Of a stretch of DNA of 64,000 nucleotides, positions 1 through 63,946 are shown piece after piece. The notes below the pieces were generated by a model, which saw only the letters and a program-made list of their open reading frames with translations, was not told where the DNA came from and searched no databases. Position 1 is the first letter of the stretch, and every line of letters starts with the position of its first letter. Source of the DNA: Naegleria gruberi. Its lineage: Eukaryota. The stretch lies in the NCBI GenBank assembly GCA_000004985.1, contig GG738851.1; one strand, given 5' to 3'. The translations under genes were made by a program, and so were the position numbers.

Positions 1-241
1 AGAATGCATAGGAAAAGGGTTTCTTGGTTCTCAAATTATTGACTGCCTTTTTAAAAACGTCCTTTCTTTGTTTGAGAGCTTGGAGAATGTTACATCTCTG
101 CTTCTCAACCACCAATTTGTACGCAAGTTTGACATCAGTGAGGTTATTTTCTGTCATTCATAAACTCCTTTGTACGAGAAGAATTCTTCCCCCACTTGGA
201 TTTTTGGAGTGCTTTGCGAACTCTCTCTATACTCTGAGTTA

Positions 242-1141
242 TCAGTAATGAGTGGAGAAGCTTTTGCAGGCCTGGAAAATTGTTGACAGAGAATCCGGAT
301 CCGTTAAGGAATCTTGGAATGAGCCCAACTCAAAATTGGAGATCTTAGCATTATTCGAATCAAGGGCATCATTATAACCTTTCAAGTTAAACTTAACATT
401 ATCAAATTTAGATTGAAAACAAGGAAGAGGAGCGCAATTAAATAAAGGCAACTCGACACACAACATCTTATGTTGCAGGAACATTTCAACATCCCAAAGT
501 CGGCTAGGAGCATGGAATGAGGAAATGATATGATCAGGTCTAGTAAGGTACGGACGGTCCGATCCTCTACTAAGCTTGAATGAGGGACGAGTAGGAGTGG
601 GCGTGAGATCTGATAGATTATACAGCTCCAGCCAGTCTTTGAGAATTTTGGCCTTTTTCTTAATCTTACCATACAGTGTGTTGATATTGAGGTCACCTAG
701 GATTACAATATGCTCGTTATGAAACATGCACTCATCTATCAACTCACTTAATCGGTTCAGTAACTTATTAAATGGACCACCAGTTTTATGATATCCATAC
801 CAATTAATCACATTGACTAATCCGTGATCACACTCAAGGACTGACAAACGACCTTGAATTATTTCCTCAAAAGAAATAATCTTTCTTTGAAGAGTTCCTT
901 TAACTATTGTGATAATACCAGCAGATTTGTCTTTGGGATCAGCATGGGAAGCATAAACTTTGCATGGAGAAAAAAACTTTGCGCATTTAGTGATGTTATC
1001 CTTAATCTCATCAGGTTTCCAATGAGATTCTTGGATGCAGGCAATATCAAGTCTCTCTTGCTTGATAAGGCCAAGGAGAATGGCTTGCTTGTCTATGGAG
1101 AATGAGGAGAGATTACAAGAAGCCATTTGAGTTCCTCTCAC
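242..1141 (-). mobile_element. Non-LTR retrotransposon ORF2, N-terminal APE-type (EEP) endonuclease domain. The ORF ends at the TGA at 242-244 and no intact RT follows in the last 240 bp of the window, so the element may be frameshifted or decayed distally.
   Basis: The translation has the EEP/APE endonuclease layout near the N-terminus: ...LLGLIKQERLDIACIQESHW..., then GDLN, then SDH-type motifs (..HIVILGDLNINT.., ..PTRPSF..). This resembles the R1/TRAS/L1 EN domain (DIALIQEPW-like). The true ATG at 1124-1126 (MASCNLSS) lies 13 nt downstream of the ORF1 stop on the same strand, which is typical bicistronic LINE organisation. Confidence 0.75.
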
Positions 1142-2450
1142 TATTGGTCGTCGTCAGAAAGATCAGCCTTCTTCGAGCTGCCCTTATTGGCACTCGGAGA
1201 GGTATGATCCTTCTTTGAGACCTTTTTACGCTTCAAATCATCACCTGAGTTCGGCTTATTCAAAGTACACACTTCATCAATCCTGTTTTCAACTCCCTTA
1301 ATGAAAGAGAGGTGTTTTTTGAGTTCAAGACTGTGTCTATCAATAGTCGGACAAATAACTTCATCTATGCATTTTTGTTGAGATTGATTTGTCTTCTCTA
1401 CAGCATTATTAGAGCTGTCCAATTTTGAAATTTTAGATTGGAACTCTGTGTGTTCAGTTGAGTTAGTGGAAGACATTTTCAACAATTCATCCTTGAGTGA
1501 GTCAACACTCTTTGTGAGATCATCAAAGACCTTAAAGAGTTTTGTTGTTTTGTCACTCAAATCACTGAGTTGAGCTGGTTGGCTCTTTGAGAACACTGCT
1601 TCCTTATTTAAATTAGCAGTAATAGTATTAAGGTTCTCTAATTCAGTGGATAACTTTGCCACATTGGAGGTGAGATTAGCAACATCGGTTTTAAGTGAGG
1701 AATTTTCAAGAGATAGTTCATTAATTCTCTTTTCAAAATCCTTCTTGAGGTTGTTAAAGTCATCCTTTGAGACAAGGTTATCAAGTACCTTAGGATCGAT
1801 ACTACCACCAGAAGAAGTAGGGATCATTGTGGAACATTTTTGTTGGATCAGCTCCGTAACTTTGGTCAAAAGTGTCGGCTTACCTAATCTTGGATTAAAT
1901 GATAAGTTTTGAATAGTAACTGAGTTCACATAAAGTACTTTGGAGACAGAAGCATTTACAAGGTGGTCCTTTTTAATTTCTGCTTGTATTAAATTACCAA
2001 GGCCGTTGACTTGGATATGTTCTGAAGGAACTTTCCAAGTAGTTGAAATGCTTTGTTTCAATTCCTTCCAGTCAACAGTGGCATCTGGATGCCACTTAAG
2101 TCTAAATGTTGTCACGGAAGTGTCAATTTCTGAAAGAAAATCGGGTTTATTATCAACAACTGCATCCTTAGTAGATACAGCCCAGAACCGAGTAGAAGGA
2201 GTATAATTCATACCAACAATATCAGGAATATGTTCAAGCACCTTACTTAAAGATTCACACCCAAAATCAAGCTTAATTTGGTATTTCACTGAAGCATGCA
2301 CTCTTTGCAGAAACATGTATCCAACCTTATTAGGGATGGTAGACCATGCATTAACGGCTTCTAGAGCATAGTTGTGAGTTACAAAATAAGCAAATGCAAC
2401 ATCCTTGTGATCATTAGGGATTTGAATGCCATGTACTTGATTAGCAGCAA
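1141..2450 (-). mobile_element. Retroelement ORF1, 5'-incomplete at the assembly gap. It has an N-terminal globular region, a central coiled coil and a basic C-terminus.
   Basis: A long minus-strand ORF terminates at the TAG at 1141-1143, immediately upstream of ORF2. The translation contains a heptad-like coiled coil (LKKDFEKRINELSLENSSLKTDVANLTSNVAKLSTELENLNTITANL) and a K/R-rich tail. The track extends it as (GL)n only because the frame runs into the (CCCAAA)n array; that portion is not real coding sequence. Confidence 0.5.
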
Positions 2451-2490
2451 NNNNNNNNNNNNNNNNNNNNNNNNNNNNNNNNNNNNNNNN
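2451..2490. other. Assembly gap (40 N) between the retroelement 5' end and the telomeric-type repeat
   Basis: A run of n characters. Confidence 0.95.
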
Positions 2491-2926
2491 NNNNNNNNNN
2501 CCCAAACCCAAACCCAAACCCAAACCCAAACCCAAACCCAAACCCAAACCCAAACCCAAACCCAAACCCAAACCCAAACCCAAACCCAAACCCAAACCCA
2601 AACCCAAACCCAAACCCAAACCCAAACCCAAACCCAAACCCAAACCCAAACCCAAACCCAAACCCAAACCCAAACCCAAACCCAAACCCAAACCCAAACC
2701 CAAACCCAAACCCAAACCCAAACCCAAACCCAAACCCAAACCCAAACCCAAACCCAAACCCAAACCCAAACCCAAACCCAAACCCAACCCAAACCCAAAC
2801 CCAAACCCAAACCCAAACCCAAACCCAAACCCAAACCCAAACCCAAACCCAAACCCAAACCCAAACCCAAACCCAAACCCAAACCCAAACCCAAACCCAA
2901 ACCCAAACCCAAACCCAACCCAACAA
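2491..2926. repeat. Telomere-type hexamer array (CCCAAA)n on the + strand, i.e. (TTTGGG)n on the - strand. About 70 units are nearly perfect, with one 5-nt CCCAA unit near 2786 and decay at the right end (CCCAACCCAAC).
   Basis: Read directly from the sequence. The C-rich strand runs 5'->3' on + here, as expected for a left chromosome end. Confidence 0.9.
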
Positions 2927-3124
2927 CTGACAAGAATAAGTGCTTCCGCTCCTACAAAGAATATTCAATATTACCCACTTTATATTTAATAAATTATACA
3001 ATATCTTGATAATTATAAGAACAATATATGATTTTTATTGTCGGAATCATCACTAAATCATGCTACCCATCCAGAAATATCAAAGGGTACATTTCAATAT
3101 CACTCTATTGTATGAAAGTGTATA

Positions 3125-3618
3125 AAACTCACCCAAACCCCACCAACCCAAACCCTTGTAAAAATTCCTTAATAATTTTGAAATATTCAAAGTTCAGTAA
3201 GATTGCAAACAATTTACTTTGTTGAATAGTGTATTACAGCCTCATCACATTGCTCGATCAGGAACTTTTTTGAAAAGAAGCAACGGGTTTGAGCCACTCC
3301 AAGCTCATTTGAAATAGTTTCAAGTCGTTTTTACATCGGGTTGGATGACAACCACTGTTTTAAAGATTACAGTTGTGAAAAATCGACTAATCTCAGTCAT
3401 TATTAAGATTTTGAGTATACTCCATTGGAATGTTACCATCTACATACAGTTTAGAACATTTTCCAACCACTTGTAAAACTTCCTTAATTATTGTGAAGTA
3501 AGAAAAGTTCAAAGAATGCAAAAATTTTAATTTGTTGTATAGTATAATACAGTCTCATTCAAAAGGTTGGATAAGTCTCTTTTTTGAAAAGAAGCAACGG
3601 GTTTGAGCAACTCCAAGC
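3125..3618. repeat. Telomere-associated tandem repeat of ~315 bp. Two copies are visible before the gap, preceded by a degenerate telomere-like motif (CACCCAAACCCCACCAACCCAAACCC at 3125-3162).
   Basis: Several blocks recur with a ~315 bp offset. The block 3150-3240 (..cccttgtaaaaattccttaataattttgaaatattcaaagttcagtaagattgcaaacaatttactttgttgaatagtgtattacag) recurs at 3464-3553. The block 3236-3310 (..tttttgaaaagaagcaacgggtttgagccactccaagc) recurs at 3551-3618. Confidence 0.8.
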
Positions 3619-5360
3619 NNNNNNNNNNNNNNNNNNNNNNNNNNNNNNNNNNNNNNNNNNNNNNNNNNNNNNNNNNNNNNNNNNNNNNNNNNNNNNNNNN
3701 NNNNNNNNNNNNNNNNNNNNNNNNNNNNNNNNNNNNNNNNNNNNNNNNNNNNNNNNNNNNNNNNNNNNNNNNNNNNNNNNNNNNNNNNNNNNNNNNNNNN
3801 NNNNNNNNNNNNNNNNNNNNNNNNNNNNNNNNNNNNNNNNNNNNNNNNNNNNNNNNNNNNNNNNNNNNNNNNNNNNNNNNNNNNNNNNNNNNNNNNNNNN
3901 NNNNNNNNNNNNNNNNNNNNNNNNNNNNNNNNNNNNNNNNNNNNNNNNNNNNNNNNNNNNNNNNNNNNNNNNNNNNNNNNNNNNNNNNNNNNNNNNNNNN
4001 NNNNNNNNNNNNNNNNNNNNNNNNNNNNNNNNNNNNNNNNNNNNNNNNNNNNNNNNNNNNNNNNNNNNNNNNNNNNNNNNNNNNNNNNNNNNNNNNNNNN
4101 NNNNNNNNNNNNNNNNNNNNNNNNNNNNNNNNNNNNNNNNNNNNNNNNNNNNNNNNNNNNNNNNNNNNNNNNNNNNNNNNNNNNNNNNNNNNNNNNNNNN
4201 NNNNNNNNNNNNNNNNNNNNNNNNNNNNNNNNNNNNNNNNNNNNNNNNNNNNNNNNNNNNNNNNNNNNNNNNNNNNNNNNNNNNNNNNNNNNNNNNNNNN
4301 NNNNNNNNNNNNNNNNNNNNNNNNNNNNNNNNNNNNNNNNNNNNNNNNNNNNNNNNNNNNNNNNNNNNNNNNNNNNNNNNNNNNNNNNNNNNNNNNNNNN
4401 NNNNNNNNNNNNNNNNNNNNNNNNNNNNNNNNNNNNNNNNNNNNNNNNNNNNNNNNNNNNNNNNNNNNNNNNNNNNNNNNNNNNNNNNNNNNNNNNNNNN
4501 NNNNNNNNNNNNNNNNNNNNNNNNNNNNNNNNNNNNNNNNNNNNNNNNNNNNNNNNNNNNNNNNNNNNNNNNNNNNNNNNNNNNNNNNNNNNNNNNNNNN
4601 NNNNNNNNNNNNNNNNNNNNNNNNNNNNNNNNNNNNNNNNNNNNNNNNNNNNNNNNNNNNNNNNNNNNNNNNNNNNNNNNNNNNNNNNNNNNNNNNNNNN
4701 NNNNNNNNNNNNNNNNNNNNNNNNNNNNNNNNNNNNNNNNNNNNNNNNNNNNNNNNNNNNNNNNNNNNNNNNNNNNNNNNNNNNNNNNNNNNNNNNNNNN
4801 NNNNNNNNNNNNNNNNNNNNNNNNNNNNNNNNNNNNNNNNNNNNNNNNNNNNNNNNNNNNNNNNNNNNNNNNNNNNNNNNNNNNNNNNNNNNNNNNNNNN
4901 NNNNNNNNNNNNNNNNNNNNNNNNNNNNNNNNNNNNNNNNNNNNNNNNNNNNNNNNNNNNNNNNNNNNNNNNNNNNNNNNNNNNNNNNNNNNNNNNNNNN
5001 NNNNNNNNNNNNNNNNNNNNNNNNNNNNNNNNNNNNNNNNNNNNNNNNNNNNNNNNNNNNNNNNNNNNNNNNNNNNNNNNNNNNNNNNNNNNNNNNNNNN
5101 NNNNNNNNNNNNNNNNNNNNNNNNNNNNNNNNNNNNNNNNNNNNNNNNNNNNNNNNNNNNNNNNNNNNNNNNNNNNNNNNNNNNNNNNNNNNNNNNNNNN
5201 NNNNNNNNNNNNNNNNNNNNNNNNNNNNNNNNNNNNNNNNNNNNNNNNNNNNNNNNNNNNNNNNNNNNNNNNNNNNNNNNNNNNNNNNNNNNNNNNNNNN
5301 NNNNNNNNNNNNNNNNNNNNNNNNNNNNNNNNNNNNNNNNNNNNNNNNNNNNNNNNNNNN
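3619..5360. other. Assembly gap (1742 N). True size and content are unknown.
   Basis: A run of n characters. The same repeat family is seen on both sides of the gap, so it probably holds more repeat copies. Confidence 0.95.
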
Positions 5361-5402
5361 TTTTAATATTGGCCATTAATAAAATGGTAATGGGTTTTCG
5401 CC

Positions 5403-5421
5403 ATACCCAAACCCAAACCCA
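5403..5421. repeat. Short (CCCAAA)3 remnant after the gap
   Basis: cccaaacccaaacccaaacccc is read directly from the sequence. Confidence 0.8.
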
Positions 5422-5439
5422 AACCCCGAGGTAAACTAT

Positions 5440-6480
5440 AACTTTTGAGTTTATCATCAAAACATATTGAATCCTGACATGAAAATGTTCCATTTGATGA
5501 GTATACATCGAATATCAAATTTATTTTAACTTTCATATTTACAGATTTCTTCCCTCAACCATCAAGGTCAACTAGGGATGAAAAGGAGGAAATCTGGAAA
5601 AAGGACCACCTATTGAAACTTTACCAAAATGATTTATATGATCTATAGTGATATAGATTTCAATTTCATATCATAAGAATTAGAAATGGTACCATGGGAA
5701 AGTAAATGTTGATTTTCCAAAGTTGACTGAAAGGAAAGACAAGTCAGACCAAGTCTATCAAATATATCACTTCAATCAACAAATTATATATGAAAATGCT
5801 CCATTAGATGTGTAGAGATTGAATATCAAGTTTATTTTAACTTTCATATTCAAGATTTCATCCCTTTCATACCATCTAGTCAACTGAGTAACACGGATGA
5901 AAATCTGGAAAATGACCTCTCTATGAAACACTTCCATCATGTTTAACAACTCAAATAATGTTGTAGAATTCAATTTTAGAGTTTTAAAATGTAATTTGAC
6001 AATATAGTAAGGTAAAGGTTGATTTTTTAATGTTGACTTTAAGGATGGAAAGGTGAAAATCATGATATCAAAAACATCACTCCAGTCAATAAAACACATA
6101 TGTAAATGTTGCAAATGATGAGTAGACACCGAATTTATCATTTATTCTAACTGGAAATATATCTAATATATACTTGGAAGTCAACTCTCGCTATAATGTA
6201 CAAGCTGTTCGGCCAAGTTACCTCTCTCAAATTAAATCATATAATCATGCTATAAATCTCTAATAATGTATATACTTCAGTTTTCAGACGTTATAGTGAA
6301 CATTCCATCATATAGTAAGGTAAGGAGTGATTTATCAACGTGGACTTTGAAGGATAGGGTTATATTCAATAAGAGAACTACATCCTCAATCAGAAAAATA
6401 CATATCAATCGATTGTAAATCGATAGTACATCTCGAAAATATCATTTATTTTATGATTTGAAATCTCTCCTTGACTTCTT
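5440..6480. repeat. Degenerate subtelomeric satellite with a ~300-310 bp period, at least three diverged copies
   Basis: Blocks recur with a 300-310 bp offset at roughly 70-80% identity. The block 5505-5610 (tcaaatttattttaactttcatatttacagatttcttccctc...gaaaaggaggaaatctggaaaaaggaccacctattgaaac) recurs at 5815-5925. The block 5700-5815 (aaatgttgattttccaaagttgactgaaaggaaag...atgctccattagatgtgtagagattgaatatcaag) recurs at 6010-6140, and again at 6320-6450. Confidence 0.7.
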
Positions 6481-6529
6481 TTAGTCAATTAAGACAATTA
6501 AGGATGTAACAATAGAAAAAGTTGACAAT

Positions 6530-7660
6530 CTCAAAATAAACTTTATTATCATGTAGTACATCTCAAATAAAGTGGACTTTATTCAAATTATATACTTTTA
6601 TTTCAAGAAATGCATCCAGTAGATAGTACTTGGTGATCTGTCAAAGTGGCTAGAAATCTGAAAGGTCCAGAAGCAAGTCTGTTTTCAAAGAAATTGATAT
6701 AATGACATATAATCACTCTAATTAGTCATGTGGTATCAATTTACTGAATACCTTAATGTCGACTCAACTTTTAACAAGATGGCACTCCATCTCATCCAAT
6801 TCAATATATGTATTACAAATATCATATATGAATAGAATCCTGAATCGAATACTCTTGATGCGTAGAACAATCTGAGAAAGTATCATACTCATGACTCAAT
6901 TCCTCTTGATCATTGTTGTACTTTTCATTCATGCGTAGATAAAAAATAACGTACATTCAAAAATACTCTCAAAAATTCTACGCATCAATATGAATGACAA
7001 CCAAATTGATTGAATGTAAGTCCGTCCGCAAAGTGACGCAAAGTAACGGAATATCGAAATCGTTACTACTTTCGAATAGCTTGAAAACAACACATTTACA
7101 CCACAACTCGATAACTAGATAAGAACTATATACTTTTTTTAAAACTTTACTAAAAAAACCAACAAAATACCCAAACGGCGCTTAATAACCCTATATCAGA
7201 TCATAAAGACCATGGAGCCACAGAAGAAACAAATCAAAACAACACGTTTCCAAACCCTTCAACCCAACCATCATAACTTGATATATATAAATATTTAACA
7301 ATTTCACATCAGCCGTATATTGTGCCCCATTACCATCACCATCTTTTGACATCATTTGTGATATATATTGTTAATGTATTTAAGGAGAAAAGCTTAATAA
7401 ATAGGGGTTGACATGGGATCCAAACCCTAAGGAAATATAAGGAAAGTTACCACTCTCAAAATAAATGATAATATCGTGTTCTACATCTCAAATAAGGTGG
7501 ACTTTCATCAAATTATATGTTTTCATTTCAAGAAATGTATCCAGTAGATAGTACATGGTGATTTGTCAGGGTGGATTGATGGAAATCTGAAGGGTCCAGA
7601 AACAACTCCATTTTCACTGAAATTGATATCATGATATGTAGACACTCTAATTAGCATATA
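6530..7660. repeat. Pair of ~190-bp related segments spaced ~920 bp apart (6530-6720 and 7450-7660). A further related pair sits at 6850-6900 and 8128-8180.
   Basis: The sequence ..aaataaagtggactttattcaaattatatacttttatttcaagaaatgcatccagtagatagtacttggtgatctgtcaaagtggctagaaatctgaaaggtccagaagcaagtctgttttcaaagaaattgatataatgacatataatcactctaattag has a close copy at 7490-7655. Confidence 0.7.
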
Positions 7661-9468
7661 ATATCAATTTCATGAATATTGGCTCAGTAGATATTGAGTT
7701 GTCAACTCTATCACTATACTATAAAACTTTGACATAAATTCAAAGATTATGCTCTAAATCACTTATTTTATATGAAACTAGTCTAGAATTGATAACACAA
7801 ATTCTGTACACCATTTATATACATCTATACAAGTTTAGAAACAATTCATGATACTTTCATTCAGTCAATCAGTAAATGTTCAATGTCAATAGTGATTATA
7901 TCCAATTGTACACACTGTCTCAATGAAAGTATATCCAAACATCATGTAACTTTACCAGATACATTTAGTCACACTGATATACATCTGGTATCAATTTTAG
8001 TCTGTTAGAATTGAATTCAATATGATAATAATAACAATCTGTCAAATTGTCACATTTCAACATATAGAATGAATACCATCTCAGTCAATTTACAAAATAT
8101 CATACTAGTATCAAAAATGAATACACTTCCCTTGATGAGGAGAACAATCTGAGAAAGTTTTATATTCATGGCTCAATATCTTCAAGTCAACTAAGGAACA
8201 TCTAAGGTAATCAAAAGGGAAGAATCTTAATTCCAAAATTAAATTTTACCATCATGTCAAAATCATTGAATAATGCATTAATTATACAAGAATAATATAT
8301 TCAATTGTTATATTCATGTCAGTAATCAGTGATGGTGACACTTCTTTAACCTTAGTATGCACATCTCAATATGTAGACAGTCAATTCCACTGAAACTTGA
8401 AATATTACCTGTCTAGATGATATAATGATGATTCTCCATAGTAACATGCATGTGAAATTGAATGTTGACTCTTTTCATCTGGTTATATTTATAGAGATGG
8501 TATCCAACAGAGTCAGTTCATAATATTAAATATTGAAACTCATTCTGTATGACATATTTGATGTATAGAATTGTTTTTATATTGATGGAAATCAGTTTGA
8601 AATAATACGATGAAATTGACACGGTCTAGTCGCCATTACATGACAAATAGACCATAGTTTACATTCCATCTCAGTCATTTCAGCGATTTATTGGTTAATT
8701 CCACCACCATTATATTTCTCATACATTTTAGTACAGTTTATATTTGAAGAGTGATTTCTGTGTAGATTATTATAATCGTAATACCTTGCAATACCAATAA
8801 AACTCAATAGAAGTGTTAATTCTTCTCATTTTCAAATAGATTATTCAATATAGAACACATCTAGATAGTTTCCAGATCATAAAAGTCAAGCTACTATATA
8901 TGGTCTTTGATTAAATTTAAAAATAGACTGCCGTTAATTACTGGAATCTTGATTCAAAGCTTGATGAGCAAGCTATTGATTGAAATCAAACCGATTATTG
9001 AATATTGATTATTGAATAAGTGAATAATCACTCTTGATAATGTTACTTATTCATATTGCATGCAAATCAACCTGATTCAATCTACAAAGGTTGGTAGTTG
9101 CACCACTTCGTGGCGAAACTACCATTCCACGATGAATCAACAAAGAATCACTTACATTCAACTCAATTTGACCGTTATAATCAATAAATCAATGAAATGT
9201 TCCTTTATTAGCAATACCTATTCAATCTAATGAGTAGATTCACGTCCCAAACATTTGGCTTCTCAAAGTCCATATTTCAAAAGTTGATACTGACCTGACC
9301 TTTATATATCTATCAATATAAGAAATGAAACCATCAAATTTACATCATTAATAGATGATAAGAAATATAATCAATGATATGAATCTTCACTAAGTAATCT
9401 CTTAAATAACCCAAATAAATCAACTCTGAATCCTAACCAAACCCACAAGAATAACAGAATATTGCTTC

Positions 9469-9996
9469 ATGGATTTGGAAACTGGTGAATATGTTAGCAG
9501 CTTGGTTAAACCAAGTTGTCCAATTACAATGAATGCACGTCAATTAACTGGTATTACATCTGAATTATTCTCTGATTGTTTAGAATTCAATCAGCATATC
9601 CAAAGAATTAAGGAATTTATTGGAAATGATGATGTGTTGTTAATTGCTCATAATGGAAAGAAATTTGATGAAAGAGTATTGAAATATCATTTTACAGATA
9701 ATCTGAGTCAGTTTGAAAATTGTACTTTAGTAGATAGTTTGCAAATGATTACGAAATTCAATGATGATTTACCAACTGTAACGAGATTTTCAAAAAAACA
9801 ACAAAAATTGGTTGAGAAGAAAGATAAAAAGTTAGTATCAATTTACAAACACATATTTGGGAGTGAAATTGAAGATGCACACTTCGCTTTGTCTGATGTG
9901 AAAGCATTAGCATTAATATCTGTGGTCAGGTTCTCGGCGCATTTTTGTGATGCTCCCAAAAAACATGGAATGCTCCCAAAGCTGATTTACTTGTAG
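9469..9996 (+). CDS. DEDDh-family 3'-5' exonuclease (DnaQ/TREX-like fold). The coding sequence may start slightly upstream, since the in-frame stretch YCFMDLETG precedes the ATG.
   Basis: Exo I-like D-x-E is in MDLETG. Exo II-like is LIAHNGKKFD. Exo III-like H-x4-D is in EDAHFALSDV. Confidence 0.6.
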   Translation: MDLETGEYVSSLVKPSCPITMNARQLTGITSELFSDCLEFNQHIQRIKEFIGNDDVLLIAHNGKKFDERVLKYHFTDNLSQFENCTLVDSLQMITKFNDDLPTVTRFSKKQQKLVEKKDKKLVSIYKHIFGSEIEDAHFALSDVKALALISVVRFSAHFCDAPKKHGMLPKLIYL

Positions 9997-42509: not shown

Positions 42510-44219
42510 ATGTTTGACAAGCCAAGTAATCTCTGCTCTCAGTCTTTTGATATTGAAAAACAAGTTTGCTTTTCCAACTCCTCTGATACTGATGTGGTCG
42601 ATTTGTTTTGGATTGATTATTCGGGTGCTGAGGTTTTTATTAGTACCATTGCTCCAAAGCAACAAGTTGGACAGAAAACCTTTGCTACTCATCCCTTCCT
42701 GATGAGAAGTTTATTGAGCAGAAAGATTGTGGGCTTGTTTGTGATTGATGAGCAATTGCCCGATCGATCAACATTGAAATATGGTGAAAATAATTATAAT
42801 ACAAGTGGCAACAGTAAAAGTAGTGGTGGAATGATTCCTACACCTGGTGATGCTCCACCTCGTTTGTTTGAAAAGATTACTTATAGAAATAGTATTGTAG
42901 GAAGTCAAGATCAATATTATGGTTTGAAATCAGCAACTGGAACTTGGCCTGCAGAGCTACATGTAAAGAATAGAACTGGACATAATTTGGAGTCTTATTG
43001 GATTGATTTTGAAGGTAATTTGAGAAGTTATGGAATTTTGGATTCTGGAAAGAATTTTGATAGTATGAGTGGACATGGTCATATCTTTCTTTTCAAAACT
43101 CCTGATGGTTCCTATCAGAAGATAATTACTGCCTCATCTGAAAAACCTTCTCAATTCCTCGATCCTGATGAAATTGAAATTACTGCCTCAGTGATAGATT
43201 CACCTTCAGAAACTAGTTGTCACTCTATTCTTGAGAAGCATATTCAAGGAAGGTGTGGACGTGCACTCAAGTTTTTCACTGAACCTCACATTGATCGGAT
43301 CATTTCAGAAATTGAAACCAAACTCAAACAAGAAGGAAAACGATTCATTGATGAAGACTTTTTCCCAGGAGATAATTGGAAGAGAGCTAGTGATTATTTC
43401 AAAAATCAAGCCAGTATTTTCAAAGGTGATATTTCTCCAAAAGCACCAATACAAGGAGGAGCAGGTGATTGTTGGTTAATCCAATCAATGAGTGGAGCAG
43501 CCACCTTACCAGACAAGATTAAGGAAGTATTTTGCAAGTGTGAACATATTGATCCATCATTGGGATTGTTTGTCTTGTCTTTCCATTCAACAGATGGTTC
43601 AAAAATATTCATTCTCTTGGATGATTACTTTCAATTTACATCAACCAATTTTAAATGTTCAAGGAGTAGTACAGTTGGAGAATTGTGGGTTCCGTTAATT
43701 GAGAAGGCATTTGCAAAACTGTGTGGAAGCTTTGAATCCCTTCATCCAGTTGTTGGAAATCATGGTATTAATCCTGCTGAAGTGTTGTTGTACTTATTAA
43801 GCGGCAAAAATGGTAAAAACATTCAATGGTACTCTGCTGAGGGGAAAACTATAATCTCTCAGGGAAAATTCTATCCACTCGTGGAGAGTTTATTGGACAG
43901 TAAAAAGAGCGTACCAGTCTGTACCAGTAATGCTAATACCAAGGAGGGCTATGTTGATGAGTATGGAATTGTTCACTATCATGGATATTCCATGTTGGGT
44001 TATAGAAAATATCCTCAACACGGCATCAATCTTCTCCACATAAGAAATACATGGTCCAAACAGGAATGGAATGGTTTGTGGTCTGATAATTGTGTACAAT
44101 GGGCCAAATATCCTGATATTGCCAGTGAACTGAGAAGTGTTTCAGAAGATGGATGCTTTTGGATATCATATGATGATTTTGTAAATCACTTTTGTGTACT
44201 TTGGTGGAATGAATTTTAA
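42510..44219 (+). CDS. Calpain-type cysteine protease (catalytic core only, no penta-EF-hand), 569 aa
   Basis: The catalytic Cys motif is QGGAGDCWLIQSMSGAA. The His region is VHYHGYSMLGY. The Asn/Trp region is IRNTWSKQEWNGLWSD. Confidence 0.7.
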   Translation: MFDKPSNLCSQSFDIEKQVCFSNSSDTDVVDLFWIDYSGAEVFISTIAPKQQVGQKTFATHPFLMRSLLSRKIVGLFVIDEQLPDRSTLKYGENNYNTSGNSKSSGGMIPTPGDAPPRLFEKITYRNSIVGSQDQYYGLKSATGTWPAELHVKNRTGHNLESYWIDFEGNLRSYGILDSGKNFDSMSGHGHIFLFKTPDGSYQKIITASSEKPSQFLDPDEIEITASVIDSPSETSCHSILEKHIQGRCGRALKFFTEPHIDRIISEIETKLKQEGKRFIDEDFFPGDNWKRASDYFKNQASIFKGDISPKAPIQGGAGDCWLIQSMSGAATLPDKIKEVFCKCEHIDPSLGLFVLSFHSTDGSKIFILLDDYFQFTSTNFKCSRSSTVGELWVPLIEKAFAKLCGSFESLHPVVGNHGINPAEVLLYLLSGKNGKNIQWYSAEGKTIISQGKFYPLVESLLDSKKSVPVCTSNANTKEGYVDEYGIVHYHGYSMLGYRKYPQHGINLLHIRNTWSKQEWNGLWSDNCVQWAKYPDIASELRSVSEDGCFWISYDDFVNHFCVLWWNEF

Positions 44220-48063: not shown

Positions 48064-49049
48064 AATTTCTTCTTGAAGAATTATTTGGTGATGGTTTTTA
48101 GGCTTTGATGATGAGCAAAATTTAATATTTAATTAATTTGATCATGATGGTGATTATATTGTAATAGTATTAATATTAATATATGATGGAGGAGAAAATT
48201 TTGATATTTTGGTGCTAGGAATAATATTTAGTTTTTATTTACATATCCATAGGATAGAATGTAAATAAATTATCATGATATTTACCGAATTGATGATGAA
48301 AATTGTTTTCGATTTATTTGGCCCGAAAACTTAAGCGCGGATGACTGTGGAAACAATAATTGGATGAGTGGAATCATTAATCTTCATCTCTTTCAAATCT
48401 TCTGGATAATCCAACAATATATCTATATACTCTGGAATTCTTCTTCAACCAAAAATAGAGCACTAGGTGATTAATTGGAATTAGTAAAAAGACAAGACTA
48501 ATAACTCCAAATTGTGTATAAGTAAAAGGTAATACTGAATCAAAAGCGGTGAGACCATTGGTAAGCATGCCCTTAATGCATTCATTTGACAATTCGGAAG
48601 AAAGTACTAGTGTGAACGAAAGTGAAATTATTCCAGAAACTATTCTACACAAGGTCAAGCCACTAGAAATGATAAATAACAAATAGTAATCCTCTTCCAA
48701 TCTGGTCCACAAAGATCTTTCCTTGATTTTGTAATTTGAAGTTGGTAGTTGTCGTTGGTGAAGAGACATTTTTTGAAGATTGTTATTAGAATGTATTAGA
48801 TTCGATTTCTTTGATATGCAAATAGTGCATTTGTGTTGATGTTTCGGTATGTACAAATTGTTTAATTATTACTTTCAAAAGTACTTTGTAGGTTGGTGTG
48901 AGTTCCAGAATTCACTAGAAAACAAATGTTTCTGTTCTGCCTATTCTAACAAGTGCGCTAGTTTTGTTTGCAAGCTTTTTTCAGCAACAAAAAAAACGCG
49001 ATAGAACACTTCCAGTTAACAAGAACAAGAACAACATAACCCTAACGTA

Positions 49050-50560: not shown

Positions 50561-50911
50561 ATGAAAAAGATACTCTTCATTGTTCTGGTTTGCATTCTGG
50601 CTGCCCTATTCTTCAATGCTGATAAAGCTGATGGACAATTAGTGTACAGCTACCGTTATGCATATAGTTACCCTTACTCCTATGGTTACTCGTATCCATA
50701 CTCATATGGCTATTCCTACCCATATAGTTACGGATACTCATATCCATACAGCTATGGTTACTCATATCCATATAGCTATGCTTATTCCTATAGTTATCCT
50801 TACTCATACGGTGGTTATGGTTATCCTTACTCATATGGTGGTTATGGCTACCCTTACTCCTATGGTTACAGTTATCCTTATTCTTATGCTTATTCATACC
50901 GTTATTGGTAA
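50561..50911 (+). CDS. Secreted tyrosine-rich tandem-repeat protein: a signal peptide followed by about 11 repeats of (G/A)YSYPYSY
   Basis: The translation is MKKILFIVLVCILAALFFNADKADG + YSYRYAYSYPYSYGYSYPYSYGYSYPYSYG.... The underlying 24-nt DNA repeats differ at synonymous positions. Confidence 0.7.
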   Translation: MKKILFIVLVCILAALFFNADKADGQLVYSYRYAYSYPYSYGYSYPYSYGYSYPYSYGYSYPYSYGYSYPYSYAYSYSYPYSYGGYGYPYSYGGYGYPYSYGYSYPYSYAYSYRYW

Positions 50912-51540: not shown

Positions 51541-52692
51541 ATGAAACAAAAACTACCTTCCAACATTAAAGTACTCATACTTTCTCTCCTTCTGGTCCTA
51601 CTACTCTACTGTAATCTTTCACATTCGGCCAGTTTACGTGGAGAATCTAGTACGAATCCAACCGATTCAAATCCGAAATCACCATTAGCTCCAGTTCAAG
51701 GTGGCGCCTACATTATCAGTAGCCAACAACCATCCACAGCCACACAGCAACAACCTACTCAAGGATCTGTCACTCAACAAACTCAAATCGATCCAAATTC
51801 TCAAAACCAAGTCGTGTCCACAACCTCGTATCCAGCATCTGCAAATCCAACTTCGATTACGGTTATTTATCCGAGTGGAGCTACTCCTAGTAGTCAAAAT
51901 CCAGTAATTCCTAGTCAACCTACTCAGACACAACCTACACAACCTACTCAGACGCAACCAACACAACCAAGTCAACCATTGCCACAGCCACAGCCACAAC
52001 CAATTCCAAATCAAAATCAACAACAATCATATCCACAATATTCACAACAAAGTACCTATAGTCAATATACAACTGGTCAACCACAACAACAGCAACAACA
52101 ACCTTATTATGGAAATAATCAACAACAACAACCTGTCTATTCACAACAACCAGTTTATAGTCAACCACAACAACAACAACAACCTTATTATGGAAATACT
52201 CAATATGCTCCACAACAATCTTATCCTCAAAATCAATATGTCCAACAGCAACCAGTGTATAGCCAACCAGTCCAACAACAACAACAACCTTATTATACTT
52301 CATCACCTCAATATGCTCCTGTCCAGAGTGGTCAACCAGCTTATTATCCACAAACACAACAGCCATACTATGGAAACACTCAATATGTCCAACAACAGCC
52401 TCAATATGTTCCACAAACTCAATATGTCCAACAACCTTACAATGGTGGTGCTCAATATTATTATCCACAACAATCTTATCCTCAAACTCAATATGTCCAA
52501 CAACCATACTATGGAACAACTGGTTATGCTGCACAACCATATGTATCGGGTGGATATCCTGCAACCACAGCTGTTGCGCCTGGCTATGGCTATGCTGCTC
52601 CTGCTGCAACTGCTGGATATGGTTATGCAGCTCCTGCAGTTGCCTATCAACCACAAGCTGTTTATTCTTCCTATCCTGCTTATTACTATTAG
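51541..52692 (+). CDS. Secreted Gln/Pro/Thr/Tyr-rich low-complexity protein (383 aa) with QQPYYGNTQYVQQQP-type repeats and a C-terminal GYGYAAPA repeat
   Basis: The signal peptide is MKQKLPSNIKVLILSLLLVLLLYCNLSHSA. The repeats are PTQ(T/P)QPTQPTQ, Q-rich and Y-rich. Overlapping ORFs on both strands are repeat artefacts. Confidence 0.65.
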   Translation: MKQKLPSNIKVLILSLLLVLLLYCNLSHSASLRGESSTNPTDSNPKSPLAPVQGGAYIISSQQPSTATQQQPTQGSVTQQTQIDPNSQNQVVSTTSYPASANPTSITVIYPSGATPSSQNPVIPSQPTQTQPTQPTQTQPTQPSQPLPQPQPQPIPNQNQQQSYPQYSQQSTYSQYTTGQPQQQQQQPYYGNNQQQQPVYSQQPVYSQPQQQQQPYYGNTQYAPQQSYPQNQYVQQQPVYSQPVQQQQQPYYTSSPQYAPVQSGQPAYYPQTQQPYYGNTQYVQQQPQYVPQTQYVQQPYNGGAQYYYPQQSYPQTQYVQQPYYGTTGYAAQPYVSGGYPATTAVAPGYGYAAPAATAGYGYAAPAVAYQPQAVYSSYPAYYY

Positions 52693-60374: not shown

Positions 60375-60447
60375 GCCCGTCTAGCTCAGTCGGTAGAGCG
60401 CAAGGCTCTTAACCTTGTGGTCGTGGGTTCGACCCCCACGGTGGGCG
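60375..60447 (+). tRNA. tRNA-Lys (anticodon CUU)
   Basis: GCCCGTCTAGCTCAGTCGGTAGAGCGCAAGGCTCTTAACCTTGTGGTCGTGGGTTCGACCCCCACGGTGGGCG. It has a 7-bp acceptor stem, a CTCTTAA anticodon loop and a GTGGG/TTCGACC/CCCAC T-arm. It is close to canonical eukaryotic tRNA-Lys(CUU). Confidence 0.9.
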
Positions 60448-60788: not shown

Positions 60789-63700
60789 ATGACCACCAAG
60801 GTACAATTAGTAAGGGATGCTTCTCTGGCTTTTCAACAAAAAAAGTACGATGAATGTTTGAAAATAATTTCGCACGATGAACATCATGAATCATCATTGC
60901 CTTGCTCGGAAGAGTTGGGGATGGACATCAAGTTAGGAACCATTGTGGGAATGTGTCATTATAACAATGCTGTTATTCAAAAAGAAATGGCAAAGGAATT
61001 GTTTGATAAGGCTTTGATTCAATTTGATAAGGTCATTTCTCAATATAGGGAATATGAAAATACTGTACATCAAGATCAAGGAAATGTCAAATCAATTGTT
61101 GAAAATAACATTGGATTGGAGGTTTTTATATCTACAACAAAGGTTAATTATTTGGCAGGTCTTTGTCATTTATATAGTAACAGGTACAAGGATGCTATAC
61201 CTTATTTTAGTAGTGCTGCTCTTATGGCCTCAACCTTACAGAGTAATATTGGATATGTGGCCAATAAGGATCATGCCAAATCTTTCCTTAAAGAGTCACC
61301 AAAGTACTATTTAAATCGAGGAATCTGCTACAATGAGTGTAAAAATAATGAGTTGGCAGAGAGGGATCTTGTCAAATATGTGGCACTAATTGAAACATCT
61401 GATTTGAGTCCAGACACTCAAGCACCTCTCTTATTTGTTGCGTTTACTAGTTTAGCAAGCACAAAATTAAACAAGAATCAACAAGAGGATGCAATCAAGT
61501 ATTTCAATAAGGCCATCGATTCTTTCAACGTAATGGAACCGGATGCCCAACAGGTACATTTTGAAAACTGTGTTAAGGCTAAACTCAAAAGAGCCACAAC
61601 ACTTCAAAAGTATATTAGTTACCATGTGTATAACTGTAAGGAAGATGCAAACCTTATGAAAGTAATTGAAAGTTATAGAAAAATGGCCTCTGATGATTTG
61701 GAAACCGCAAGAAAATACAAGAGACTCGAGTTTTATTACTTGTACCAATATGTAAAAATGATAGTGATGTTCTGCAAACATGTGGAAGGACTCATTGAAA
61801 AAGATGAATTGGTACCTCTCTATCAAGATGCTGCAGACAAGTTGCAAGAATGCATTTCAATTCAACCAAAGAATGCAAAATTGTACGGGGACTTGGCATT
61901 GTGTAAGAGCAAGATTGGGAAAGAAAAATTGGAAGAAATTTTAGATTTGTACAATAAGAGTTTTGAATTAACCAATGGGGAACCTACGGATAAGGTATCT
62001 AAGCAAAAGTTGGCCAGGATTTATTTCGAAAGATCTGTCATTTATTTCAAATTATCCAATACTGATAAGGCCAAACAAGATTTGGATAGAGCTATTCGTT
62101 TGAATCCATACTTTTCAGATGCTTACTACAATAGAGGTTTTTTATTGAAGGATTCCGAAGATGATATTGAACAAACTTTGGACGATTTGGGAGCAACCTG
62201 TGAAATGAACCTTGAGGACACTGAGTGTGCATTTCTTACGTAAGTTGATTGGTATTGTTCAGTTTGATTGTAATTATATATAGTGCCATTATTTTAGCAA
62301 AACAAGAAAACAAGGAAGGTAGTCGTTCCATTGTCGAAGAATTCATCAAGTTTAACCCTAATGATTCCAATTTGAAAGATCTTTTATTAGCTCTTAATAA
62401 CGAGGGCAGTTTGGATGCATTTGAATCCTTACCTAAATTCAGAGAATCCCACAAGAAGAACAAACTCTGGACACCTAATAGAAAAACAAAACCAAGTCTA
62501 GACAGAGCATCAATTAGAAATAGAGTTACAAGTGCCAAACTCGACGAACAAGACACTGATGATGGCTATTATTGTGATCCAACCTTCCCAGCAGTGTCAA
62601 AATCAATCTACGGAACAGAGGATAGTGATTTACCATCTGAATTGACTTGGTACAGAACTTGGGACTTGTGTTTCCTCAGAGAAGAGTCCCAACTTTTTGT
62701 TGATGGTACAAGCAATACTGATATCATGCAAGGTGGTATAGGTGATTGTTGGTTACTTTCTGCATTTTCAATTGTTGCTGACTATCCAGATATCATGAGT
62801 AAGATTATATTGGAGTCAAAATCAGATCCAGATAACGGAAAGTATGTCTTTTCCATTTTCGGAAAAGAAGGCCCCACAGAAGTAGTTATTGACAATAGAT
62901 TGCCATGTTTTTCTGATTCGGGAAGTCTTGCATTCTCCAGGAGTGGAACCTCAAACGAAATGTGGATTTCCTTATTAGAGAAGGCATATGCTGCGTATTA
63001 TGGAAGCTACCAAGCACTTCAAAGTGGTTACATGAGGGATGCCCTTGTTAGTTTAACAGGTGGAGTTCCTTTCACTCTTGATATCAGTGTAGAAAACAAG
63101 GAGGAGGTATGGGAAATCTTAAAGACTATTAAAAAGAAGAGCACTGATCCCTCATCATACTGCTTAATGGGATGTAGATCTGACAAGGCACCAGCCAGAA
63201 CTGGTATTCAAACTCACCATGCCTATGCAATTCTGGATTGTTTCGACTGTCCTCTTGAAATGACCAATGGAAAGAGAACTCGTCTTGTCAAACTTAAGAA
63301 TCCATGGGGTTATGGTGGTGAATTAGAATCTGGAGATTACTCTGATGATAGTAAGTGGTGGACTAAGGAGCTCAGGAAATATGTTGGACATGAATCAAAA
63401 ATTGATGGCATTTTCTTCTTGACTTTGGGGGCACTTGTTAAATATTATACGCAAATTCAAGGAGTAAGGATTTTTGATGAGGAGCATTGGAGTATAGCAC
63501 GTTTTGTGGATGAATTCAAGCAAAAACCTGGACATGACTTGGATGACTGGGGCCTAGATATTTGTTCTTTCTCGTCTCATTATGTTATTCACAACACCCA
63601 CGAAGACAACAAGCTAGTAATTGAACTTTCTCAAAAAGACACCAGATTTACAAGAGATCAAAAAGAAGAGTTCAAATGTGTTGCCATTTATGTATTTAAA

Positions 63701-63946
63701 TATCCTGAAAGTCAATTCAATGGCGAAGAAAGCACCAGGTTAGCAACAATTGGTGAAGAGAATGAAACTGTCGTTCAGGGTATCTACGACGGTTGTTACA
63801 GTGAAACAAGCATTGAGACAACACTACCTGTTGGCCATTATGTTGCAATTCCAGCTGAGCTTTACTCTAAGACACCAACAGAGAAACTTTCACTCAAAAT
63901 TATTTCAAGAAAACCTGTCACTATTGTTAGATTGCCTGTTCAATAA
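60789..63946 (+). CDS. TPR-repeat / calpain-type cysteine protease fusion protein, ~1036 aa. Exon 1 (60789..62239) encodes the TPR region. A 44-bp GTAAGT..TAG intron at 62240..62283 removes the apparent TAA stop. Exon 2 (62284..63946) encodes the calpain core.
   Basis: TPR-like helices include ..YYNRGFLLKDSEDDIEQTLDDL.. and DLDRAIRLNPYFSDAYY. The splice AC|GTAAGT...ATATATAG|T is in phase and joins ..CAFLT to AIILAKQENKEG.. The calpain motifs are MQGGIGDCWLLSAFS (Cys), IQTHHAYAILD (His) and KLKNPWGYGGE (Asn/Trp). Confidence 0.65.

What the first reader, a model, noticed from the sequence alone, without database searches (positions are those of the whole stretch)
2491..5425. TTTGGG hexamer as the telomeric repeat, with C-strand polarity indicating a left chromosome end
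- The array is a clean hexamer, (CCCAAA)n, not the common TTAGGG/TTTAGGG/TTAGG types.
- To my knowledge TTTGGG is best known mixed with TTGGGG in Paramecium, but this genome uses the standard code and ~40-70 bp introns, so it is not Paramecium-like.
- A second short block, (CCCAAA)3 at 5403-5421, and a degenerate CACCCAAACCCCACCAACCC at 3125-3162 lie internal to the main array.
- This interspersion of telomeric hexamers with a ~315-bp repeat is typical of telomere-associated sequence mosaics.
Basis: partly seen in the sequence, partly recalled or inferred. Interest (0 to 1): 0.5.

Follow-up and report, generated by a model that had tools for sequence, protein, structure and literature searches.

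The report
Naegleria gruberi TTTGGG telomere tract
This is the TTTGGG telomere repeat and the repeat-rich subtelomere at one end of a Naegleria gruberi genome scaffold; the repeat was already published as this amoeba's candidate telomere in 2013, so the finding is real but ordinary.

Summary
The array is real. There are 68 perfect CCCAAA units plus 3 CCCAA variants at 2501-2923, against 0.41 matches expected by chance. The only other blocks of two or more units in 64 kb are at 5406-5423, on the same strand.

The window is Naegleria gruberi NEG-M, on a 693,645-bp scaffold. GenBank protein numbering indicates it is the start of that scaffold.

TTTGGG was already reported as the candidate N. gruberi telomere repeat (Fulneckova et al. 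2013, PMC3622300). I found no later experimental confirmation in the held literature.

The polarity, the degenerate inner edge, two tandem satellites, short same-strand telomere-like islands and a gene-free 6.5 kb all fit a left chromosome end.

- The array starts at a 50-N assembly gap.
- 1,752 of the 2,935 flagged bases are N.
- A 2,450-bp fragment of a non-LTR retrotransposon (LINE) lies distal to the array.

The telomere contig (1,118 bp) and the LINE contig are both small and joined only across gaps, presumably by mate pairs. Mis-ordering is therefore plausible, and physical terminality is not proven.

Verdict: correct, already known, low interest.

The parts
1..2450 (-). Fragment of an APE-type non-LTR retrotransposon (LINE). 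ORF1 (coiled-coil, no Pfam family) runs 2450->1141. The start of ORF2, with a weak Exo_endo_phos match, runs 1141->242. It is cut by the window start and by the gap.
   Evidence: 98.2% identical over 2,463 bp to positions 387-2838 of the full-length element on ENA metagenome contig L001. L001 ORF2 has RVT_1 and aligns to human L1 ORF2p and R2 proteins in PDB. Weak APE endonuclease hits in the window copy. Annotated as EFC48404.
2451..2500 (.). Assembly gap, 50 N. This is the only link between the LINE contig and the telomere contig.
2501..2923 (+). Telomeric tract, C-strand as written: (CCCAAA)47 CCCAA (CCCAAA)21 CCCAA CCCAA. The G-strand (TTTGGG)n runs 5'->3' towards the left.
2924..3130 (.). 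Unique AT-rich spacer between the tract and the first internal telomere-like island.
   Evidence: no self-match.
3131..3156 (+). Degenerate telomere-like island, CACCCAAACCCCACCAACCCAAACCC. It caps the distally truncated first unit of satellite A.
   Evidence: Homology between the two satellite units starts only at about 3148; the second unit has just CCAACCAC at this position.
3148..3618 (.). Satellite A: 1.5 tandem units of 314-315 bp, 81-83% identical, running into the gap.
   Evidence: (families D7, D10).
3619..5360 (.). Assembly gap, 1,742 N.
5406..5423 (+). (CCCAAA)3 island, same strand as the main tract, at the start of the main contig.
5479..6453 (.). Satellite B: about three tandem units of ~310 bp, 70-89% identical. 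Not detectably related to satellite A.
   Evidence: (D2, D6).
6518..8177 (.). Further degenerate direct repeats (spacings 925-929 and 1,277 bp) in the gene-free zone.
   Evidence: (D1, D5, D8). The longest stop-free stretch in 5361-9400 is 121 aa.
9469..9996 (+). First annotated gene proximal to the telomere: an RNase_T-family 3'-5' exonuclease (EFC48246). It marks the end of the subtelomere.

Best explanation
The tract at 2501-2923 is the C-rich strand of the TTTGGG telomere at, or within a few kb of, the left end of a Naegleria gruberi chromosome.

Inferred mechanism, from the general biology of telomeres: telomerase extends the G-strand 3' end by copying a CCCAAA-containing template in its RNA. 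This produces a homogeneous distal tract. The inner edge is no longer renewed and decays (CCCAA variants).

Proximal to the tract is a typical subtelomere. It holds two tandem ~310-315-bp satellites and short telomere-like islands on the same strand. One island caps a truncated satellite unit, as a healed break would. There is no gene for about 6.5 kb.

The LINE fragment drawn to the left is attached only through an assembly gap. The last 5.4 kb of the scaffold consists of two small contigs (2,450 and 1,118 bp), presumably ordered by mate pairs. The most likely reading is that the LINE contig is mis-ordered or mis-joined; it would roughly fit the 1,742-N gap. The telomere contig is then the true terminus.
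For: Shown here:
- Array size, purity and excess over chance.
- All telomere-like blocks share one strand and lie within the first 5.4 kb; there are none in the remaining 58 kb.
- Single CCCAAA hexamers are enriched and TTTGGG hexamers absent in the subtelomere: 7 vs 0, against 20 vs 12 in the genic part.
- The satellites and the capped truncated unit.
- The gene-free zone.
- The organism is N. gruberi.

Scaffold position: the LINE gene model EFC48404 appears to be the first minus-strand gene of the scaffold (inferred from the numbering). The counts of ORFs between numbered genes match the accession gaps exactly. The 158 plus-strand accession numbers fit 693 kb. The window is therefore at the scaffold start (inference).

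Literature: TTTGGG was chosen as the N. gruberi candidate telomere after inspection of scaffold 5' and 3' ends, position and orientation (PMC3622300).

Side support: in an unrelated metagenome assembly (JAESGV01), 13 of 13 contigs carrying (CCCAAA)n have the array at the contig end in the telomeric orientation, in a standard-code eukaryote.
Against: - In the assembly as given the array is internal, with 2,450 bp of LINE distal to it.
- I could not see the reads or mate pairs, so mis-ordering is an inference.
- No experimental evidence (Bal31, TRAP, FISH) was found for Naegleria in the held literature.
- No telomerase RNA or TERT gene was examined. Rfam finds only two tRNAs in the window.
- I could not fetch other N. 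gruberi scaffold ends, because its genes are not on record in the locus index.
Confidence: 0.8

Rival explanations
1. The scaffold order is correct. The LINE really lies distal to a block of TTTGGG repeats, because it inserted into, or was appended to, the terminal tract (a telomere-associated retrotransposon). The true chromosome end is then further left, and the array is a near-terminal internal block.
For: - The assembly places the LINE there.
- The family seems low-copy in the annotated proteome, with only EFC48404 and EFC43434. This makes a join caused by repeat confusion less automatic.
- The element's sense strand is continuous with the G-strand. From memory, this is the orientation of Bombyx SART1 in (TTAGG)n.
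- Retroelements next to telomeres are common; for example, an LTR element starts 140 bp from the tract in metagenome contig L085.
Against: - No telomere repeat occurs at either end of the two other copies I could read. The L001 5' UTR and 3' region have none, and upstream of ORF1 in the 71%-identical relative L002 there is none.
- The join is only a 50-N gap, yet at least 386 bp of the element's 5' end are missing.
- Both end contigs are smaller than typical clone inserts, so their order is weakly determined.
- There is no sign of the R1-clade or sequence-specific features of known telomere-targeting LINEs. The best PDB hits are generic R2 and L1.
Confidence: 0.15
2. The array is an ordinary interstitial microsatellite unrelated to chromosome ends, and N. 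gruberi telomeres are something else.
For: - Short (CCCAAA)6-10 arrays occur internally in many, mostly GC-rich, metagenome contigs, so the hexamer can be a plain microsatellite.
- The published assignment is in silico only.
Against: - 70 near-perfect units, strict strand polarity, and a position at the inferred scaffold start beside satellites and a gene desert.
- The published survey found the repeat convincing by terminal position and orientation across the assembly.
Confidence: 0.04
3. A contaminant or artefact: the 1,118-bp telomere contig comes from another organism (for example a ciliate) and was scaffolded in by error.
For: The contig is small and flanked by gaps on both sides.
Against: - The main N. 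gruberi contig itself begins with (CCCAAA)3 on the same strand (5406-5423).
- The composition of 2924-3618 (32% GC) matches the neighbouring subtelomere at 30%.
- Paramecium telomeres mix TTGGGG with TTTGGG (from memory), whereas this tract has no CCCCAA unit.
Confidence: 0.01

Closest known systems
Candidate TTTGGG telomere of Naegleria gruberi (Fulneckova et al. 2013, Genome Biol Evol 5:468; PMC3622300)
   Same: Same organism, same assembly, same repeat unit. The assignment there also rested on position and orientation at scaffold ends.
   Different: Nothing essential. The paper does not describe this particular end in the text I could read: its subtelomeric satellites, internal islands or the LINE contig. 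The supplement is not held.
Ciliate telomeres: Tetrahymena TTGGGG and Paramecium TTGGG(G/T)
   Same: T(2-3)G(3-4) hexamers without the A of TTAGGG. Paramecium telomerase makes TTTGGG units among TTGGGG (from memory).
   Different: Here the tract is pure TTTGGG, with no CCCCAA unit. The organism is a heterolobosean with the standard genetic code and ordinary chromosomes, not a ciliate macronucleus.
Subtelomeric mosaics with internal telomere-repeat islands (yeast X/Y' with internal TG1-3, Plasmodium TAREs, human subtelomeres)
   Same: Tandem satellites next to the terminal tract, short degenerate telomere-like islands on the same strand, and a gene-poor zone.
   Different: The satellites here are short runs (2-3 units seen, partly hidden by a gap). 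They have no detectable relatives in the data I could search.
Telomere-associated non-LTR retrotransposons (Bombyx TRAS/SART, Drosophila HeT-A/TART, Giardia GilM/GilT, Chlorella Zepp)
   Same: An APE-type LINE drawn next to a telomeric tract, with its sense strand continuous with the G-strand.
   Different: Adjacency exists only across an assembly gap. The two other copies readable here are not flanked by telomere repeats. No target specificity is shown.

Membership tests
Telomerase-type terminal telomeric repeat | Short tandem unit with a G-cluster on one strand, T(n)G(n) or T(n)A(m)G(o) | tested here: met
   TTTGGG/CCCAAA, 68 perfect plus 3 variant units.
Telomerase-type terminal telomeric repeat | Polarity: the G-strand runs 5'->3' towards the chromosome end | tested here: met
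   The C-strand reads 5'->3' into unique and gene-bearing DNA. The window is at the inferred scaffold start.
Telomerase-type terminal telomeric repeat | The array is at the physical terminus of the molecule | tested here: inconclusive
   In the assembly a 2,450-bp LINE contig lies distal across a 50-N gap. Order and orientation of the two small end contigs cannot be checked without reads.
Telomerase-type terminal telomeric repeat | The same repeat caps many or all chromosome ends of the genome | not testable with these tools
   N. gruberi scaffolds could not be fetched. I rely on the published in silico survey (PMC3622300).
Telomerase-type terminal telomeric repeat | Homogeneous distal repeats with degenerate variants at the proximal edge | tested here: met
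   Variants occur at 2783 and at 2914-2923 only, followed by a degenerate island at 3131-3156.
Telomerase-type terminal telomeric repeat | Bal31 sensitivity, or telomerase activity that makes the repeat; a telomerase RNA with a matching template | not testable with these tools
   These are wet-lab assays. No telomerase RNA family matched in the window. No experimental report was found.
Interstitial telomeric sequence (ITS) | Telomere-type repeats flanked on both sides by contiguous non-telomeric chromosomal DNA | tested here: inconclusive
   The right flank is contiguous. The left flank is joined only by Ns.
Telomere-repeat-specific LINE (TRAS/SART type) | Copies are flanked on both sides by telomeric repeats at a fixed target position | tested here: not met
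   L001, L123 and L002 carry no repeat of two or more units at either end. These are short-read contigs that may break at repeats, so the test is weak.
Telomere-repeat-specific LINE (TRAS/SART type) | APE endonuclease plus RT, non-LTR architecture | tested here: met
   ORF1, then ORF2 with an APE-like N-terminus and RVT_1; aligns to L1 ORF2p residues 23-870.

The most novel reading that the evidence does not exclude
The LINE distal to the tract is genuinely there. It would represent a heterolobosean non-LTR retrotransposon that lives in or on TTTGGG telomeric tracts, a lineage of telomere-associated retroelements independent of those in insects, Giardia and Chlorella.
Probability: 0.1. Interest if true: 0.5.

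Novelty: already known. Interest (0 to 1): 0.12.

Why it matters
It confirms that this scaffold starts at a chromosome end, and that the unusual A-less hexamer TTTGGG marks Naegleria telomeres. That assignment is useful for judging assembly completeness and for finding the Naegleria telomerase RNA template. The repeat was published for this genome in 2013, so nothing new is learned about telomere diversity. The only open point is whether the LINE fragment truly sits beyond the tract.

Tried and rejected
- **Other N. gruberi loci.** Fetching them failed: the species' genes are not in the position index. I could not count arrays at other scaffold ends.
- **Identity of the JAESGV01 eukaryote.** I tried to identify this metagenomic organism with TTTGGG-capped contigs through one of its DYW-type PPR proteins. 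The only matches were 20-25% identical, mostly plant PPR proteins, so the organism stays unidentified and cannot be called a Naegleria relative.
- **LINE ends through a protein cluster.** The 46-aa 'members' were spurious and their contigs (L124-L129) are unrelated to the LINE.
- **Satellites A and B as one family.** They are not similar; only the telomere-like motif matches.
- **Rfam scan of the window.** Two tRNAs and no telomerase RNA.
- **Bacterial promoter/terminator scan.** Uninformative, as expected for a eukaryote.
- **Literature.** Searches for later or experimental work on Naegleria telomeres or TERT found nothing beyond the 2013 survey. The 2010 genome paper is not held.

Full report
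**Observation**

Tandem Repeats Finder reports CCCAAA, 70.8 copies, 99% matches, at 2501-2923. A direct parse gives 47 perfect units (2501-2782), one CCCAA (2783), 21 perfect units (2788-2913), then CCCAA CCCAA and unique sequence. The 12-mer CCCAAACCCAAA (up to 1 mismatch) occurs 70 times, against 0.41 +/- 0.65 in dinucleotide shuffles.

The only other blocks of two or more units in the 64 kb are (CCCAAA)3 at 5406-5423, on the same strand. A degenerate CACCCAAACCCCACCAACCCAAACCC lies at about 3131-3156.

- The array begins immediately after a 50-N assembly gap (2451-2500).
- 3619-5360 is a 1,742-N gap, so 60% of the flagged interval is unknown sequence.
- 2,450 bases of other sequence lie to the left of the array.

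**Organism**

Five window ORFs are identical to RefSeq or GenBank proteins of Naegleria gruberi strain NEG-M, all on one 693,645-bp scaffold. The genome is about 33% GC and gene-dense, with long standard-code ORFs.

**Prior knowledge**

A full-text search for TTTGGG plus telomere led to Fulneckova et al. 2013 (PMC3622300). That paper searched 143 genome assemblies. Where standard motifs failed, the authors inspected scaffold 5' and 3' ends by eye. [quoted passage not shown]

Further searches found no later or experimental work on Naegleria telomeres, telomerase or TERT in the held library. The central claim is therefore already published, at the level of an in silico candidate.

**Is this a chromosome end?**

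Polarity is right. The C-strand reads 5'->3' into unique DNA, so the G-strand runs 3'-outward to the left.

Proximal to the tract the sequence looks like a subtelomere:
- A 207-bp spacer.
- A degenerate telomere-like island that caps a distally truncated unit of a 314-315-bp tandem repeat (satellite A, 3148-3618, 81-83% identity).
- Beyond the large gap, (CCCAAA)3 followed by a different ~310-bp tandem repeat (satellite B, 5479-6453, 70-89% identity) and more degenerate repeats up to about 8.2 kb.

Satellites A and B share no detectable similarity apart from the telomere-like motif. The 'interspersion with a ~315-bp repeat' is therefore only partly accurate.

No stop-free stretch longer than 121 aa exists in 5361-9400. 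The first gene is an RNase_T-family exonuclease at 9469. Single CCCAAA hexamers number 7, against 0 TTTGGG, in the subtelomere. In the genic 54.6 kb the counts are 20 and 12.

**Position in the scaffold (inference)**

GenBank protein numbers on this scaffold run first through the plus-strand genes and then through the minus-strand genes, each in coordinate order.
- Plus strand: EFC48246 (9469), 48249 (17342), 48250 (22410), 48251 (30383).
- Minus strand: EFC48404 (the LINE model, 242-), 48407 (20320), 48414 (40931), 48418 (52796).

The number of ORFs between each pair matches the gaps in numbering exactly. The LINE model therefore appears to be the first minus-strand gene of the scaffold. The 158 plus-strand numbers (48246-48403) fit the roughly 160 plus-strand genes expected for 693 kb at the window's density. 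No reverse-transcriptase-bearing gene model of this element exists on the scaffold. The window is thus at or very near the scaffold start, and the tract lies 2.5 kb from the scaffold end.

**The sequence to the left**

Bases 1-2450 (minus strand) are 98.2% identical to positions 387-2838 of a 5.5-kb ENA metagenome contig, L001. L001 carries a complete element: ORF1 of 524 aa, and ORF2 of 982 aa with an APE-like N-terminus and RVT_1. Its best solved relatives are R2 proteins and human LINE-1 ORF2p.

The window copy has indels and a premature stop, and lacks at least 386 bp of the 5' end, which would lie in the '50-N' gap. The family is rare in the databases. Only two N. gruberi gene models exist (EFC48404 here, and EFC43434 on a 461,873-bp scaffold), plus a few metagenome copies.

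None of the readable copies (L001, L123, and the 71%-identical L002) has telomere repeats at either end.

The telomere contig is only 1,118 bp and the LINE contig 2,450 bp. Both are joined only across gaps, presumably by mate pairs. Swapping their order, so that the LINE contig roughly fills the 1,742-N gap, would make the tract terminal. I consider this or a false join the most likely situation. I cannot test it without the reads.

**Side evidence from metagenomes**

Many are GC-rich with short internal arrays, which are plain microsatellites.

Among arrays within 60 nt of a contig end, 27 have the telomeric orientation and 9 the opposite. All 13 contigs of one assembly (JAESGV01) carry the array at the end in the telomeric orientation. 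They are AT-rich with long standard-code ORFs, including DYW-type PPR proteins. One (L085) has a Ty3-like LTR element 140 bp from the tract and a second short island.

Its PPR protein has only 20-25%-identical matches, mostly to plant PPR proteins, so the organism is unidentified. This shows that pure TTTGGG telomeres exist in at least one other non-ciliate eukaryote. It says nothing direct about Naegleria.

**Mechanism**

Shown: sequence anatomy, polarity and near-terminal position.

Inferred from general telomere biology:
- The G-strand is synthesised by telomerase from an RNA template containing CCCAAA.
- The inner repeats decay.
- The internal islands originate as remnants of earlier healed ends or subtelomeric recombination.

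TERT and the telomerase RNA of Naegleria were not examined. Rfam finds only tRNA-Met and tRNA-Lys in the window.

**Verdict**

The finding is real and its interpretation is essentially correct, but it is already known. Physical terminality at this locus remains unproven because of the gap-joined LINE contig. The only mildly novel possibility is a telomere-associated LINE in a heterolobosean. My evidence does not favour it.

Noticed in passing
window 1-2450 (minus strand); L001, L123, L002: A low-copy APE-type LINE of N. gruberi. A 98%-identical full-length copy (ORF1 524 aa, ORF2 982-1,133 aa) occurs in a metagenome run (ERR1078381, PRJEB11402). A 71%-identical relative is in NCBI assembly GCA_050043615.1. 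The window copy has indels and a premature stop in ORF2 and is annotated as a fused gene model, EFC48404.
   Followed up: partly
L008, L030, L032, L043, L055, L078, L079, L083, L084, L085, L103, L116, L121 (JAESGV01 contigs): An unidentified AT-rich, standard-code eukaryote in a metagenome assembly. All 13 hit contigs end in TTTGGG arrays in the telomeric orientation. L085 has two DYW-type PPR genes and a Ty3-like LTR element 140 bp from the telomere. The best protein matches are only 20-25% identical, mostly plant PPRs.
   Followed up: partly
L026 877-1021; L083 2213-2289; L010 3' end: Mixed arrays at contig ends. TTTGGG repeats run directly into TTAGGC repeats (L026). G-rich variants such as TTTGGGGGGTGGGG and TTGGGGT are embedded in TTTGGG tracts (L083, L010).
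   Followed up: no
L065 (LUMJ01000369.1) 5-64; L096 1-108: Contigs with prokaryote-looking gene content (cobalamin-pathway methyltransferase-like ORFs, a tRNA synthetase-like ORF, an integrase-like ORF) that nevertheless begin with (CCCAAA)10-18. These may be chimeric assemblies or linear elements. I judged the gene content by eye only.
   Followed up: no
window 3131-3156 and 3148-3462: The first unit of satellite A is truncated on its distal side exactly where the degenerate telomere-like island begins, as if an older chromosome break had been healed there and later moved inward.
   Followed up: partly
window 51541-52692 (+) and 50657-50905: A 383-aa secreted-looking protein made almost entirely of Q/P/Y-rich short repeats. 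It is preceded by 24-27-bp tandem repeats. Antisense ORFs across it are artefacts of the low complexity.
   Followed up: no
window 42510-44219 (+) and 62249-63946 (+): Two long ORFs contain a calpain-like GDCWL(I/L)(Q/S) cysteine-protease motif. Seen in the translations only; not run against Pfam.
   Followed up: no
window 23089-23160 (-) and 60375-60447 (+): tRNA-Met(CAT) and tRNA-Lys(CTT) genes. These are the only Rfam matches in the window.
   Followed up: yes
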